From assembly GCF_054482525.1 (NCBI RefSeq), contig NZ_CM137006.1: a stretch of 64,000 nucleotides of DNA; one strand, written 5' to 3'. Numbering within the stretch: position 1 is the first letter of the stretch; each line of letters begins with the position of its first letter. A program made the position numbers. Of the stretch, positions 37,001 through 43,000 are shown in pieces.

Positions 37001-40000
37001 ACCGTACCGGCGATGAAATGCATTCGGTGATGGAAGCTGGCCCGATGCTGCGTAAAAACCAGATGAAATCGACGCCGTGGATCAAAGCCTACGAACGTAA
37101 TAACGTGCTTTCCGGTCTGTTCTGTGGGCTGCGCGGTAAAGCGCAAATCGGTAAAGGCATGTGGGCAATGCCGGACCTGATGGCAGACATGTACAGCCAG
37201 AAGGGCGACCAACTGCGTGCCGGGGCAAACACAGCCTGGGTTCCGTCACCAACCGCTGCTACGCTCCATGCGCTGCACTACCACCAAACCAACGTACAGA
37301 GCGTGCAGGCCAACATTGCCCAGAGCGAGTTCAATGCTGAATTTGAACCGCTGCTGGACGATCTGCTGACTATTCCGGTGGCTGAAAACGCTAACTGGTC
37401 AGTGGAAGAGATCCAACAAGAGCTGGATAACAACGTGCAGGGGATTCTGGGGTACGTGGTGCGTTGGGTGGAGCAGGGGATTGGTTGTTCAAAAGTGCCG
37501 GATATTCACAACGTGGCGTTGATGGAAGACCGTGCAACGTTGCGTATCTCCAGCCAGCATATCGCCAACTGGTTACGTCACGGTATTCTGACCAAAGAAC
37601 AGGTGCAGGCGTCGCTGGAGAATATGGCGAAAGTGGTTGATCAGCAAAACGCTGGCGATTCGGCTTATCGTCCGATGGCGGGGAATTTCGCTAACTCGTG
37701 TGCTTTTAAAGCTGCCAGCGATTTAATCTTCCTCGGCGTGAAACAGCCAAACGGCTATACCGAACCGTTATTACACGCCTGGCGTTTACGCGAAAAAGAA
37801 AGTCATTAATAGCGTCAAAAAAGCCCCGGCAAGTTTTATTGTCGGGGCTATGATAGTAACTGCGGTAGTACATTTATCCCGGAAATAACCGGAGCGATTA
37901 TCAGGGTTTAACAATATTAAATACCCGTAGCGCATTACTAGCGGGCCTAAAACAACAATATGGACATCTTAACGATATTCTGCGCCTGCGTGTGCGGAAC
38001 AGAAACCCTTACCCGATATACTTGTTATGCCAGAGGTAGCAATTGCGTTAGCAGCGTACTGTTGCTGTAAAGTATAACGCCTATATTTTACAGTTCAGTC
38101 CTCTTTTGCTTATTACAACCTTAAGTATATCAAGCATATAAAGATAATAAGAGACTGAACAATATGGTTAGCTGGACCCAAATGTATATGCCGATGGGAG
38201 GACTGGGGCTATCCGCTCTGGTCGCCCTGATCCCGATAATATTCTTCTTCGTTGCACTCGCGGTATTACGTCTGAAAGGACATGTCGCCGGAGCAATAAC
38301 CCTTATATTATCTATTCTGATTGCGATATTCGCCTTTAAAATGCCGATTGATATGGCATTTGCTGCTGCGGGCTATGGCTTTATTTATGGTTTATGGCCT
38401 ATTGCGTGGATTATTGTCGCGGCGGTGTTCCTCTATAAATTAACCGTTGCCAGCGGCCAGTTCGATATTATCCGCAGCTCGGTTATCTCCATCACCGACG
38501 ATCAGCGTTTGCAGGTGTTACTGATTGGTTTCTCCTTTGGCGCGTTGCTGGAAGGGGCGGCTGGCTTTGGTGCGCCGGTGGCGATTACCGGTGCGCTGCT
38601 GGTGGGCCTGGGCTTCAAACCGTTATACGCGGCGGGGCTGTGTCTGATTGCCAACACTGCGCCGGTGGCGTTTGGTGCGTTGGGTGTGCCGATTCTGGTC
38701 GCCGGTCAGGTAACGGGAATCGATCCGTTCCACATTGGCGCAATGGCGGGACGTCAGTTACCGTTCCTGTCGGTTCTTGTGCCGTTCTGGCTGGTAGCAA
38801 TGATGGACGGCTGGAAAGGGGTGAAAGAGACGTGGCCAGCGGCGCTGGTTGCTGGGGGAAGCTTCGCTGTCACGCAGTTCTTTACCTCTAACTATATTGG
38901 TCCGGAACTGCCGGATATTACTTCGGCGCTGGTGAGTATCGTCTCACTCGCTTTATTCCTTAAAGTCTGGCGGCCGAAAAATACCGAAACGGCAATCAGC
39001 ATGGGACAATCCGCAGGTGCGATGGTGGTGAATAAACCATCTTCTGGCGGTCCCGTGCCTTCAGAATATAGTCTGGGGCAAATCATTCGTGCGTGGTCAC
39101 CGTTTTTAATCTTAACGGTGCTGGTCACCATCTGGACCATGAAGCCGTTTAAAGCGTTATTTGCTCCGGGCGGCGCGTTTTATTCACTGGTGATTAATTT
39201 CCAGATCCCTCATTTGCATCAACAAGTGTTGAAAGCGGCACCCATTGTCGCCCAACCAACGCCAATGGATGCGGTGTTTAAATTCGACCCTCTCTCGGCT
39301 GGCGGCACCGCTATTTTTATTGCGGCGATTATCTCTATCTTCATCCTCGGCGTGGGCATCAAGAAAGGGATTGGCGTCTTTGCCGAAACGCTAATTAGTC
39401 TGAAGTGGCCGATATTGTCGATTGGCATGGTGCTGGCGTTCGCCTTCGTCACCAACTATTCCGGTATGTCCACCACGCTGGCGCTGGTACTGGCAGGTAC
39501 AGGCGTGATGTTCCCGTTTTTCTCACCGTTTCTCGGCTGGCTGGGCGTATTCCTTACCGGCTCGGACACCTCCTCTAACGCCCTGTTTGGTTCACTGCAA
39601 TCGACCACGGCGCAGCAAATCAACGTCTCTGACACTCTGCTGGTGGCAGCAAATACCAGCGGCGGCGTAACTGGCAAGATGATCTCCCCGCAATCTATCG
39701 CCGTGGCCTGCGCCGCGACGGGAATGGTGGGCCGAGAATCTGAACTGTTCCGCTACACCGTGAAGCACAGTCTGATCTTTGCCAGTGTGATCGGCATTAT
39801 CACGCTGTTGCAGGCGTATGTGTTTACCGGGATGTTAGTTTCGTAAGTCAATAAAGCCGGATGATCGTTAATATCATCCGGCTTCATTTACATTACTCTG
39901 TCTTATTAATGGAAAATTATTTCCCGCTTTATTATCCATGTAACAATAATGTTTCGCGTTCAGATAACATGCTAAATAATTAAGAGCGTGAGAACATCTA

Positions 40001-43000
40001 TTATTTATCACGCAAAACAAGTCAGTATTAATTATGTTCGCTTGATGAGCAAACACCGTTCTATCTGTTGCTTTTGCAATCTTAATCGTTAAAACTACCA
40101 ACAAATTTATATAGTTACGTTGTGAAAGGTTGTTAATTTTTTGTTTATTGAAATTTCGTAAAAATAACCAGCCAGACATCGAATAGGGGTTATTCTTATA
40201 AATTTCACCTGTTTTTCTATCAATGATGCCGTTTTCTTAAGAATGGAGGAAGTTATTAAAGAAGATAAAGCATAAAACTATTTCCCCGGTTACGAATCTT
40301 TTAACTTTGTTTTGTCACTTGCGTTATTAATGAATAAGAAATTTAAATATAAGAAATCGCTTTTAGCGGCTATTTTGAGTGCAACCCTGTTAGCCGGTTG
40401 TGATGGCGGTGGCTCCGGATCTTCCTCCGATACGCCGCCTGTAGATTCTGGAACAGGGTCTTTGCCGGAAGTGAAACCTGATCCAACACCAAACCCGGAG
40501 CCGACGCCTGAGCCAACGCCGGACCCAGAACCTACGCCGGAACCGACACCTGATCCTGAGCCAACACCAGAACCGGAGCCAGAACCTGTTCCTACGAAAA
40601 CGGGTTATCTGACCCTGGGCGGAAGCCAGCGGATAACTGGTGCTACTTGTAATGGTGAATCCAGCGATGGCTTTACCTTTACGCCAGGCGACAAAGTCAC
40701 CTGTGTGGCAGGGAACAACACGACAATTGCTACCTTCGACACCCAGTCAGAAGCTGCGCGTAGCCTGCGTGCGGTTGAAAAAGTGTCGTTTAGTCTTGAG
40801 GACGCGCAAGAACTGGCAGCTTCCGATGACAAGAAAAGCAATGCGGTTTCGCTGGTAACGTCCAGTAACAGCTGTCCGGCGAATACAGAACAGGTTTGCC
40901 TGACGTTCTCCTCAGTGATCGAGAGTAAACGTTTCGACTCGCTGTATAAGCAAATCGATCTGGCACCGGAAGAGTTCAAAAAGCTGGTCAATGAAGAGGT
41001 GGAAAACAATGCCGCGACCGATAAAGCGCCATCCACTCATACTTCACCGGTTGTGCCCGTCACCACGCCGGGAACAAAACCGGATCTGAACGCTTCCTTC
41101 GTGTCGGCTAACGCGGAACAGTTTTATCAGTATCAACCCACTGAAATCATTCTCTCCGAAGGCCGACTGGTAGATAGCATGGGCAATGGTGTGGTTGGCG
41201 TAAATTACTACACCAGCTCAGGCCGTGGCGTAACTGGCGAAAACGGCAAATTCAATTTCAGCTGGGGCGAAACCATCTCCTTTGGTATCGACACCTTTGA
41301 ACTGGGCTCAGTGCGCGGCAATAAGTCGACCATTGCGTTGACTGAACTGGGTGACGAAGTTCGCGGCGCGAATATTGATCAGCTTATTCATCGTTACTCC
41401 CAGGCCGGAAAAAATGATGAGCGTGAAGTGCCGGACGTAGTGCGCAAGGTCTTTGCCGAGTATCCCAACGTAATCAACGAGATTATCAATCTCTCGTTAT
41501 CCAATGGCGAGGCGTTGAGCGAAGGCGATCAAACCTTTGAGCGGACAAACGAATTTCTTGAGCAGTTTGAATCCGGGCAGGCTAAAGAGATTGATACGGC
41601 GATTTGTGACTCCCTTGGGGGCTGCAACTCTCAGCGTTGGTTCTCGTTGACAGCACGCAATGTTAATGACGGCCAGATTCAGGGCGTTATTAACAAGCTG
41701 TGGGGTGTGGATACGAACTACAAATCTGTCAGCAAGTTCCATGTATTCCATGACTCTACCAACTTCTATGGCAGCACCGGTAATGCGCGCGGTCAGGCAG
41801 TGGTGAATATCTCCAACGCGGCATTCCCGATTCTGATGGCGCGTAATGATAAAAACTACTGGCTGGCCTTCGGCGAAAAACGCGCCTGGGATAAAAACGA
41901 GCTGGCGTACATTACGGAAGCGCCTTCTCTCGTTGAGCCGGAAAACGTTACGCGCGATACCGCCACCTTTAACCTGCCGTTTATTTCGCTGGGGCAAGTC
42001 GGTGAGGGCAAACTGATGGTTATCGGTAACCCGCACTACAACAGCATTTTGCGTTGTCCGAACGGTTACAGCTGGGAAGGCGGTGTTGATAAAAACGGTC
42101 AGTGTACGCGTAACAGTGATTCTAATGATATGAAGCACTTTATGCAGAACGTGTTGCGCTATCTGTCCGACGATAAATGGACGCCGGACGCGAAAGCCAG
42201 CATGACCGTAGGTACCAACCTGGATACTGTCTATTTCAAACGTCATGGTCAGGTTACAGGAAACAGCGCTGAGTTCGGCTTTCATCCGGATTTTGCGGGT
42301 ATCTCTGTTGAGCATTTAAGTAGCTATGGCGATCTCGACCCGCAGGAAATGCCGCTGCTGATCCTCAACGGCTTTGAGTATGTGACTCAGGTTGGTAACG
42401 ATCCTTATGCAATCCCGCTGCGAGCAGATACCAGCAAACCGAAGCTGACTCAGCAGGATGTGACCGATCTGATCGCCTATCTGAACAAAGGTGGATCGGT
42501 GCTGATCATGGAAAACGTGATGAGCAATCTTAAGGAAGAGAGCGCGTCTGGCTTTGTACGTCTGCTTGATGCCGCAGGTCTGTCGATGGCACTGAACAAG
42601 TCGGTAGTAAATAACGATCCGCAAGGGTATCCGAACCGCGTTCGTCAGCAGCGCGCAACGGGCATTTGGGTCTATGAACGTTATCCTGCCGTAGATGGTG
42701 CGCTGCCGTACACCATCGATAGTAAGACAGGGGAAGTTAAGTGGAAATATCAGGTAGAAAACAAACCTGATGACAAACCGAAGCTGGAAGTTGCCAGCTG
42801 GCTGGAAGATGTAGATGGCAAACAGGAAACGCGTTATGCCTTTATTGATGAGGCCGATCATAAAACAGAGGATTCTCTGAAGGCTGCGAAGGCAAAAATC
42901 TTTGAGAAGTTTCCTGGATTAAAGGAGTGTAAGGACCCAACTTACCACTACGAGGTCAACTGTCTGGAATATCGTCCTGGCACGGGGGTTCCGGTTACTG

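What the first reader, a model, noticed from the sequence alone, without database searches (positions are those of the whole stretch)
39847..40329. Long AT-rich upstream region of yghJ
About 480 bp with no credible coding capacity and many A/T tracts precedes the T2SS-beta operon. This is typical of horizontally acquired, H-NS-silenced virulence operons and probably contains the regulated promoter.
Basis: inference. Interest (0 to 1): 0.25.

Follow-up and report, generated by a model that had tools for sequence, protein, structure and literature searches.

The report
Known H-NS-silenced sslE (yghJ) promoter region

Summary
Window 39847-40329 is the 483-bp glcA-sslE(yghJ) intergenic region of E. 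coli. Its GC is 31%, against 50% for the window, and it has no conserved ORF and no Rfam match. Yang 2007 (as summarised by Tan 2016) showed one operon promoter upstream of yghJ, repressed by H-NS and StpA at low temperature. Tan 2016 added Fis activation. The K-12 orthologous region is listed as H-NS-bound in all ChIP studies and as a 'promoter island'.

I mapped the published parts onto the window:
- glcA terminator hairpin: 39854-39884.
- Equivalent of the published active promoter fragment: 39847-40135.
- Fis site F1: 39958-39972. Fis sites F2: 40036-40061.
- Weak core promoter: TTGCTT at 40068-73, AAAACT at 40091-96.
- Inferred start of transcription: about 40103.

That start implies an AT-rich leader of about 227 nt. 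The leader shows no predicted RNA structure. It has one sharply curved DNA segment (40167-40246) and no Shine-Dalgarno sequence before the ATG.

Two caveats apply. The operon body is 54% GC, so composition gives no sign of recent horizontal transfer. A/T tracts are no more frequent than base composition predicts. Verdict: already known, low interest.

The parts
39847..40329 (.). glcA-sslE(yghJ) intergenic region, 483 bp, GC 0.313
   Evidence: Present in 4299 of 5426 complete E. coli genomes at 80-100% identity, with 4180 of the 4299 at 90% or more.
39854..39884 (+). glcA intrinsic-terminator-like hairpin: 12-bp stem, 7-nt loop, weak T tail
   Evidence: Consensus scan. Fold of 39840-39900 gives -23 kcal/mol, z = -8.0 against shuffles. 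The stem is kept in E. albertii, where some G-C pairs become G-U.
39847..40135 (+). Equivalent of the published active sslE promoter fragment (pQF50-sslE of Tan 2016). The promoter and start site must lie inside it.
   Evidence: Primers 5570 and 5571 from S1 Table of PMC5012682 map here with one mismatch each.
39958..39972 (+). Fis-rule site GTTCAGATAACATGC = published F1 (centre -138), inside a conserved upstream block 39958-39998
   Evidence: Fis-rule scan; geometry test. The block is 85% identical to E. albertii, against 54-70% for its neighbours. Mutating F1 had no effect on Fis activation.
40001..40006 (+). T-tract whose length differs between strains (TTATTT here; T6 to T8 elsewhere), about 100 bp upstream of the inferred start
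   Evidence: Alignments A1 and A2. These indels are what break the 101-aa minus-strand ORF.
40036..40061 (+). Three overlapping Fis-rule sites = published F2 (-68 to -41), needed for Fis activation
   Evidence: In 5000 shuffles, three such sites within 28 bp occur at P = 0.002, and together with the F1 spacing at P = 0.0002. It has a single variable position (40055, A/T), as Tan 2016 describe for F2.
40068..40096 (+). Inferred weak sigma-70 core promoter: -35 TTGCTT (40068-40073), 17-bp spacer, -10 AAAACT (40091-40096), or 16 bp and TAAAAC (40090-40095)
   Evidence: Position follows from the Fis-site triangulation. The PWM score is low and ranks 14th. 40062-40108 is the best-conserved stretch: 1 variable column of 47 in the E. 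coli clade and 85% identity to E. albertii, where the hexamers read TTGATT and AAAAAT, closer to consensus.
40103..40103 (+). Inferred transcription start (+1, an A after a C), uncertainty about +/-2
   Evidence: Inference. The published offsets (F1 at -138, F2 at -41 to -68) fit the observed sites only if +1 is 40102-40104. I did not read it from primary TSS data.
40103..40329 (+). Leader (5'UTR) of about 227 nt. At least 195 nt is shown by the fragment end. It is AT-rich, unstructured, and has no Shine-Dalgarno sequence before the ATG.
   Evidence: Fragment end at 40135. Fold z = +0.15. No Rfam match at E <= 1. Sequence read directly.
40167..40246 (.). Sharply curved DNA segment predicted inside the leader (about +65 to +144), peak near 40217
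   Evidence: Wedge-model curvature of 21 deg per turn, 99.98th percentile of the 64-kb window; 1% of composition-matched shuffles reach it. The model parameters were recalled from memory.
40330..44895 (+). sslE (yghJ) coding sequence, first gene of the operon (context)
   Evidence: RefSeq annotation of the 100% identical strain LH10-b-1; the ORF runs to its stop at 44895.

Best explanation
The interval is the cis-regulatory region of the sslE(yghJ)-pppA-gspS-beta-gspC..M operon of E. coli.

Layout, 5' to 3':
1. The glcA terminator hairpin.
2. About 170 bp of AT-rich upstream DNA, including a conserved block with a dispensable Fis-like site (F1).
3. A cluster of three overlapping Fis sites (F2) directly upstream of a weak sigma-70 promoter.
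4. A start of transcription near 40103.
5. An AT-rich, intrinsically curved leader of about 227 nt that ends at an ATG with no Shine-Dalgarno sequence.

Mechanism:
[quoted passage not shown] This is strong at ambient temperature and weaker at 37 C (shown in the literature for orthologous sequences).
- Fis bound at F2 helps RNA polymerase and counteracts H-NS during growth at 37 C (shown genetically in UTI89).
- TypA/BipA acts positively, possibly through its known role in Fis synthesis (own knowledge; inference).

Status of each step for this window: sequence equivalence and positions are shown here. Protein binding and the start site are inferred from published work on sequences that are about 95% (K-12) and 97% (UTI89-like N12) identical over the whole region and identical over the core promoter.
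For: - Identity of the locus: 100% match to E. coli LH10-b-1, with glcA upstream and sslE-pppA-gspS2-gspC..M downstream.
- Published regulation: PMC5012682.
- The primers of the active fragment map to 39847-40135.
- The Fis-site geometry matches the published -138 and -41..-68 offsets; P = 0.0002 in shuffles.
- The core promoter 40062-40108 is invariant among 6 E. coli strains except one column, and is 85% identical to E. albertii, against 54-70% for adjacent spacers.
- The K-12 orthologous region is H-NS-bound in all ChIP studies compared and is listed as a promoter island.
- The DNA is AT-rich and has a strong predicted curvature peak.
- There is no conserved ORF, no Rfam family and no excess RNA stability.
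Against: - Nothing was measured on this strain.
- The primary paper with the primer-extension and EMSA data (Yang 2007, PMC1797218) and the figures of Tan 2016 could not be read. The start site is therefore triangulated, not observed.
- The promoter is not picked out by sequence alone. The consensus scan finds no plus-strand site, and the PWM ranks it 14th, behind a TATAGT element at 40110-40115.
- The Lang high-affinity H-NS motif is not enriched: one match with <= 2 mismatches, at 40104-40113.
- A/T tracts are not above composition expectation.
- The Fis rule and the curvature parameters were recalled from memory.
Confidence: 0.9

Rival explanations
1. The promoter is in the same region but at a different position. 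Transcription would start about 40122 from the TATAGT element (40110-40115), or from several overlapping starts, giving a leader of about 208 nt.
For: TATAGT is the best -10-like hexamer inside the published fragment and scores above the inferred promoter in the PWM scan. E. albertii has GATAAT at the aligned place. The K-12 region is classed as a promoter island with many potential start points.
Against: With +1 at 40122 the published offsets do not fit: -138 would fall on 39984 and -68..-41 on 40054-40081, where the three-site cluster is absent. No usable -35 lies upstream of TATAGT. The fragment would carry only about 14 transcribed bases.
Confidence: 0.12
2. The long leader is itself a regulator. 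It would act either as a structured RNA (thermometer, riboswitch or sRNA target) or by encoding a small leader peptide, and this would explain the temperature response.
For: The leader is at least 195 nt. The sslE ATG has no Shine-Dalgarno sequence, and a GGAGG at 40248-40252 is conserved in E. albertii. TypA, a ribosome-associated GTPase, affects expression.
Against: The predicted fold is no more stable than shuffles, z = +0.15. No Rfam family matches at E <= 1. The short ORFs in the leader are not kept in frame in E. albertii. The temperature effect is relieved by deleting hns and is seen at the transcript level.
Confidence: 0.06
3. The AT-rich stretch is a junction scar of a horizontally acquired island. 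In this reading H-NS coats foreign DNA in general rather than controlling a specific promoter.
For: In K-12 the cluster lies next to tRNA pheV. One of five predictors flags the neighbourhood as foreign. The locus is missing or deleted in about a fifth of complete genomes, and some strains show internal deletions or an IS1 insertion.
Against: The operon body is 53.9% GC, not AT-rich. IslandViewer, GIST and two other predictors do not flag it. The same glcA-gap-sslE arrangement occurs in E. albertii and Escherichia sp. E1V33. The promoter core is under visible constraint, and specific regulation has been shown.
Confidence: 0.1

Closest known systems
yghJp / sslE promoter region of ETEC H10407 and UPEC UTI89 (Yang et al. 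2007, J Bacteriol 189:142; Tan et al. 2016, PMC5012682)
   Same: It is the same locus and the same flanking genes. The published promoter primers map with one mismatch each. The core promoter 40062-40108 is identical to a UTI89-like allele (strain N12). The Fis F1 and F2 sites lie at the published spacing.
   Different: It is an allelic variant. The window is about 97% identical to the UTI89-like allele and about 95% to K-12 over the 483 bp. It carries A rather than T at 40055 inside F2 and a shorter T-tract at 40001-40006. The expression level of this allele is unknown.
Promoter islands of E. coli K-12 (Panyukov and Ozoline 2013, PMC3661553)
   Same: The K-12 orthologous region (3117080_374, yghJ/glcA) is one of the 78 listed islands. 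It is AT-rich, H-NS-bound in all ChIP sets, and poorly transcribed in K-12.
   Different: Unlike most islands it is flagged as foreign by only one of five predictors. It drives a productive, regulated operon promoter in pathogenic strains. A simple consensus scan shows no excess of promoter-like sites over composition-matched shuffles.
virF (Shigella) and other promoters with antagonistic H-NS and Fis control and a temperature-sensitive DNA bend
   Same: H-NS represses at low temperature, Fis activates at 37 C, and the DNA is AT-rich and curved. Tan 2016 draw this comparison themselves.
   Different: In the window the strongest predicted bend lies downstream of the start, at about +65 to +144. 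No bend-dependent mechanism has been shown for sslE.

Membership tests
sslE/yghJ operon promoter region (yghJp) | Lies between glcA and sslE, upstream of the T2SS-beta operon | tested here: met
   ORFs and the RefSeq annotation of the identical strain.
sslE/yghJ operon promoter region (yghJp) | Sequence equivalence to the experimentally active promoter fragment | tested here: met
   Primers 5570 and 5571 map to 39847-39866 and 40114-40135 with one mismatch each. The core is identical to the UTI89-like allele.
sslE/yghJ operon promoter region (yghJp) | Fis sites F1 (centre -138) and F2 (-41 to -68) upstream of the -35 element | tested here: met
   Sites at 39958-39972 and 40036-40061; the spacing matches at P = 0.0002 in shuffles. 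The Fis rule was recalled from memory.
sslE/yghJ operon promoter region (yghJp) | Mapped transcription start site | not testable with these tools
   Inferred at about 40103 from published offsets. The primary figures are not held, and no entry was found in the supplements of one genome-wide TSS paper.
H-NS/StpA-silenced DNA | AT content well above the genome average | tested here: met
   GC 0.313 against 0.503, in the lowest 3.8% of windows.
H-NS/StpA-silenced DNA | Intrinsic curvature | tested here: met
   Peak of 21 deg per turn at about 40217, 99.98th percentile of the window; 1% of shuffles reach it. This is a model calculation only. Tan 2016 report the same with BEND-IT.
H-NS/StpA-silenced DNA | Enrichment of the high-affinity motif TCGATAAATT | tested here: not met
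   One match with <= 2 mismatches in 483 bp (40104-40113), about the window-wide density.
H-NS/StpA-silenced DNA | H-NS or StpA occupancy and derepression in hns mutants | not testable with these tools
   Published for orthologous sequences: ChIP in K-12; EMSA in H10407 and qRT-PCR in UTI89 and EC958.
Horizontally acquired AT-rich island | Gene body with atypically low GC | tested here: not met
   sslE is 0.516 and the operon 0.539. Only gspS2 is somewhat low, at 0.443.
Horizontally acquired AT-rich island | Patchy distribution, or absence from sister species | tested here: inconclusive
   Present in 79% of complete E. coli genomes, and in E. albertii and Escherichia sp. E1V33 at the same place. 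Only three hits came from one pattern scan.
Cis-regulatory RNA in the leader (thermometer or riboswitch) | Stable or conserved secondary structure, or an Rfam family | tested here: not met
   Fold z = +0.15. No Rfam match at E <= 1 in 37000-41500 other than C0719, which lies elsewhere.
Protein-coding gene | ORF kept intact across strains | tested here: not met
   The 101-aa minus-strand ORF is truncated in 4 of 6 strains. The 40-aa plus-strand ORF changes mostly at the amino-acid level.
Promoter island (PlatProm definition) | Very high density of predicted start points over at least 300 bp | not testable with these tools
   PlatProm is not available. The K-12 orthologous region is listed. A simple consensus scan found 1 site against 2.3 expected.

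The most novel reading that the evidence does not exclude
The roughly 227-nt AT-rich leader may not be passive. Its sharply curved segment (about +65 to +144) could be a downstream H-NS/StpA nucleation site that bridges to the upstream AT-rich DNA and traps RNA polymerase at the weak promoter, like the downstream elements of proU or eltAB. The SD-less start codon could add a second, translational layer of control. The published promoter fragment ends at +33, so this has never been tested.
Probability: 0.25. Interest if true: 0.3.

Novelty: already known. Interest (0 to 1): 0.1.

Why it matters
SslE is a mucin-degrading lipoprotein and a vaccine candidate, and its operon encodes the type II secretion system that ETEC uses to secrete heat-labile toxin. 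The control region therefore decides when both are made. That regulation (H-NS/StpA repression, Fis activation, temperature dependence) is already published, so this finding adds no new biology. What this check adds is small. It gives a coordinate map of the published elements on this allele. It shows that the AT-richness is confined to the gap while the operon itself is GC-normal. It points out that at least 195 nt of leader, with a strong predicted bend, lies outside every reporter construct described in the text I could read.

Tried and rejected
1. Reading the primary paper (Yang 2007, PMC1797218) and a dRNA-seq paper (PMC4288677): neither is held.
2. Looking for K-12 start sites in the supplements of the Cappable-seq paper PMC4782308: no entry for yghJ/sslE or for coordinates 31192-31194xx.
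3. Looking for H-NS and Fis ChIP tables in PMC3064808 and PMC3686432: no supplements are held.
4. Finding the promoter from sequence alone. The consensus scan gave only a minus-strand site, and a PWM ranked the inferred promoter 14th. I rejected this as a way to place the start site.
5. Structured RNA in the leader: rejected.
6. Coding ORFs, including the 101-aa minus-strand ORF: rejected.
7. H-NS high-affinity motif enrichment: not found.
8. A/T-tract excess over composition: not found.
9. The strongest sigma-70-like match in the gap is on the minus strand (TTGATA, 17 bp, TATAAG; 40223 to 40195). Its -10 is not conserved in E. albertii, so I treat it as a chance or spurious promoter.
10. One literature search failed on term syntax.
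Full report
**1. What is at the coordinates**

The window is E. coli. The interval matches strain LH10-b-1 at 100% and occurs in 4299 of 5426 complete E. 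coli genomes at 80-100% identity (4180 of them at 90% or more), nearly always once and on the chromosome. In the annotated identical strain, glcA (glycolate permease) ends one base before the interval. sslE (formerly yghJ) starts one base after it, followed by pppA, gspS-beta and gspC to gspM. In window coordinates glcA is 38164-39846 and the sslE ATG is at 40330. The finding's boundaries are therefore exactly the intergenic region, 483 bp.

Its GC is 0.313, against 0.503 for the window. Only 3.8% of 483-bp windows are as AT-rich, and most of those lie in a separate low-GC island at 57-63 kb. A/T tracts of four or more number 11, against 8.9 +/- 2.6 in shuffles, so they add nothing beyond composition.

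**2. Is anything encoded?**

No feature is annotated here in the identical strain or in K-12 MG1655. The only sizeable ORF is 101 aa on the minus strand (39874-40179). Length changes in a T-tract truncate it in 4 of 6 strains. The 40-aa plus-strand ORF starts inside the terminator hairpin and carries many amino-acid changes across the six strains. An Rfam scan at E <= 1 over 37000-41500 finds only C0719, between glcB and glcA, outside the interval. The claim of no credible coding capacity holds.

**3. What the literature already shows**

Tan et al. 2016 (PMC5012682) summarise Yang et al. 2007:
- In ETEC H10407, sslE/yghJ and the 13 downstream genes form one transcript.
- H-NS and StpA bind the promoter region and block open-complex formation.
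- Expression is higher at 37 C than at 22 C.

Tan et al. added the following for UPEC:
- They mapped the same start site by 5'RACE in UTI89.
- hns deletion raises sslE mRNA about 3.5-fold (UTI89) and 2.2-fold (EC958) at 22 C, and about 7-fold in EC958 at 37 C.
- fis and typA are positive regulators.
- Three point mutations in a cluster of Fis sites at -41 to -68 (F2) reduce promoter activity to the fis-mutant level. A site centred at -138 (F1) is dispensable.
- Fis and H-NS act antagonistically.

Independently, Panyukov and Ozoline 2013 (PMC3661553) list the K-12 yghJ/glcA gap as one of 78 'promoter islands'. They score it as H-NS-bound in all the ChIP studies they compared, while only one of five methods flags the neighbourhood as foreign. 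Lang et al. 2007 also name yghJ among H-NS-sensitive genes with multiple H-NS-like motifs.

I could not read Yang 2007 itself or any figure.

**4. Mapping the published elements onto the window**

The primers used to clone the active promoter fragment (S1 Table) match 39847-39866 and 40114-40135 with one mismatch each. The promoter and its start site therefore lie in 39847-40135, and the leader is at least 195 nt. This much is shown.

To place the start more finely I scanned for 15-bp Fis sites using the Shao/Osuna inclusion-exclusion rule: G at -7, no A at -4, R at -3, Y at +3, no T at +4, C at +7. I recalled this rule from memory. Five sites result. One is at 39958-39972, and three overlap at 40036-40061.

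The published offsets (centre -138; span -68 to -41) fit these sites only if +1 is 40102-40104. In 5000 shuffles of the region such a trio occurs at P = 0.002, and the trio together with the upstream site at the right spacing at P = 0.0002. F2 as mapped has a single polymorphic position (40055, A/T), which matches Tan's statement about F2.

This places an A at 40103 as +1. The promoter would be TTGCTT (40068-40073), a 17-bp spacer and AAAACT (40091-40096). It is a weak promoter, which fits its dependence on an activator. The cloned fragment then spans -256 to +33.

Sequence alone would not have found this promoter. The consensus scan finds no plus-strand site, and a PWM ranks it 14th, behind a TATAGT at 40110-40115. 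That element is my main rival for the exact start.

**5. Independent support from conservation**

A degenerate pattern for the SslE N-terminus, scanned over species-representative genomes, recovered E. albertii and Escherichia sp. E1V33. Both have glcA, an AT-rich gap (503 bp at GC 0.328; 484 bp at GC 0.300) and sslE in the same order.

Identity to E. albertii by segment:

| Segment | Identity |
|---|---|
| Core promoter 40062-40108 | 85% |
| F1 block 39958-39998 | 85% |
| F2 | 77% |
| Last 74 nt before the ATG | 78% |
| Remaining spacers and leader | 54-70% |

In E. albertii the two hexamers read TTGATT and AAAAAT, closer to consensus. Within the E. coli clade the core promoter has one variable column in 47.

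**6. The rest of the anatomy**

- 39854-39884 is a 12-bp-stem hairpin directly after the glcA stop codon. It folds at -23 kcal/mol (z = -8) and has a poor T tail. This is the glcA terminator, not part of the sslE control region.
- The inferred leader 40103-40329 folds no better than shuffles, z = +0.15.
- No Shine-Dalgarno sequence precedes the ATG (GTCACTTGCGTTATTAATG). A GGAGG at 40248-40252, about 78 nt upstream, is conserved in E. albertii, but no short ORF is kept in frame there.
- A wedge-model curvature calculation (parameters recalled from memory) gives one sharp peak of 21 degrees per turn at about 40217, within 40167-40246. This is the 99.98th percentile of the 64-kb window and is reached by 1% of composition-matched shuffles. 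The bend lies downstream of the start and outside the published reporter fragment.
- The Lang H-NS motif is not enriched. Its only near-match (40104-40113) sits just downstream of the inferred start.

**7. Horizontal acquisition**

The operon body is 53.9% GC and sslE is 51.6%, so the AT-richness is confined to the gap. The arrangement is shared with two other Escherichia species, and four of five predictors do not call the neighbourhood foreign.

Some signs point the other way. In K-12 the cluster abuts tRNA pheV. About a fifth of complete genomes lack the region. Some strains carry deletions inside the operon or an IS1 in the gap. Against K-12, sslE is much more diverged (92.5% over its first 3 kb) than glcA (97.9%), with the gap in between at 94.9%.

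Composition therefore gives no support for recent transfer. Ancient acquisition and allelic exchange remain possible.

**8. Verdict**

The feature is already known. The only open point is whether the long, curved, SD-less leader contributes to silencing or translation, which existing reporter constructs did not include.

Noticed in passing
window 37864-38085 (-): Full-length Rfam match to the C0719 sRNA (297 bits, E = 3e-78) in the glcB-glcA gap, antisense to the glc operon direction.
   Followed up: no
L008 (E. coli HS) 748-1445; corresponds to window ~39960: An IS1A element is inserted in the glcA-sslE gap of strain HS. It lies about 140 bp upstream of the inferred start, next to or within the F1 block, and may alter H-NS silencing or provide an outward promoter.
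   Followed up: partly
L006 (AR24.2b) 1085-1684; L002 (AH65) 2444-3780: Some strains keep the AT-rich gap but have large internal deletions of the operon: a 5' fragment of sslE (annotated AcfD, missing its C-terminus) directly abuts a gspJ remnant, or the gap runs into a truncated gspE. The locus decays repeatedly while the promoter stays.
   Followed up: no
window 40330-43329 vs L003: sslE is only 92.5% identical to K-12 over its first 3 kb, while glcA is 97.9% and the glcB-glcA gap 99.2%. The control region (94.9%) sits on the slope of this divergence, as expected if the known sslE allelic variants extend into the promoter.
   Followed up: partly
window 39958-39998: An upstream block (GTTCAGATAAC.TGCT.AATAATT.AG.GCGTGAGAAC) is as conserved in E. 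albertii (85%) as the core promoter. Yet the Fis-like site in it (F1) is reported to be dispensable. Another factor or an H-NS nucleation site may bind here.
   Followed up: partly
window 40315-40329 and 40248-40252: No Shine-Dalgarno sequence lies before the sslE ATG. A GGAGG about 78 nt upstream is conserved in E. albertii without a conserved ORF after it.
   Followed up: partly
window 40195-40223 (-): The best sigma-70-like match in the whole gap is on the minus strand (TTGATA, 17 bp, TATAAG), pointing back towards glcA. Its -10 is not conserved in E. albertii. It is probably a spurious promoter of the kind common in H-NS-bound DNA.
   Followed up: partly
window ~56800-63400: A low-GC island (down to 0.27) lies downstream of gspM. 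It carries ABC-transporter genes and large hypothetical ORFs. No tRNA gene is found anywhere in the window, whereas in K-12 pheV follows yghD directly.
   Followed up: no
window ~24700-28800 (L001 4879-8966): An annotated cluster of serine palmitoyltransferase, acyl carrier protein, epimerase/dehydratase and fatty acyl-AMP ligase lies next to yghO. Further upstream an IS3 element splits a YtfJ-family gene.
   Followed up: no
L012 (MAG 'Collinsella sp.' contig, 1032 bp): A 1-kb contig assigned to a Collinsella metagenome-assembled genome carries the E. coli-type sslE start. It is probably a mis-binned Escherichia fragment.
   Followed up: no
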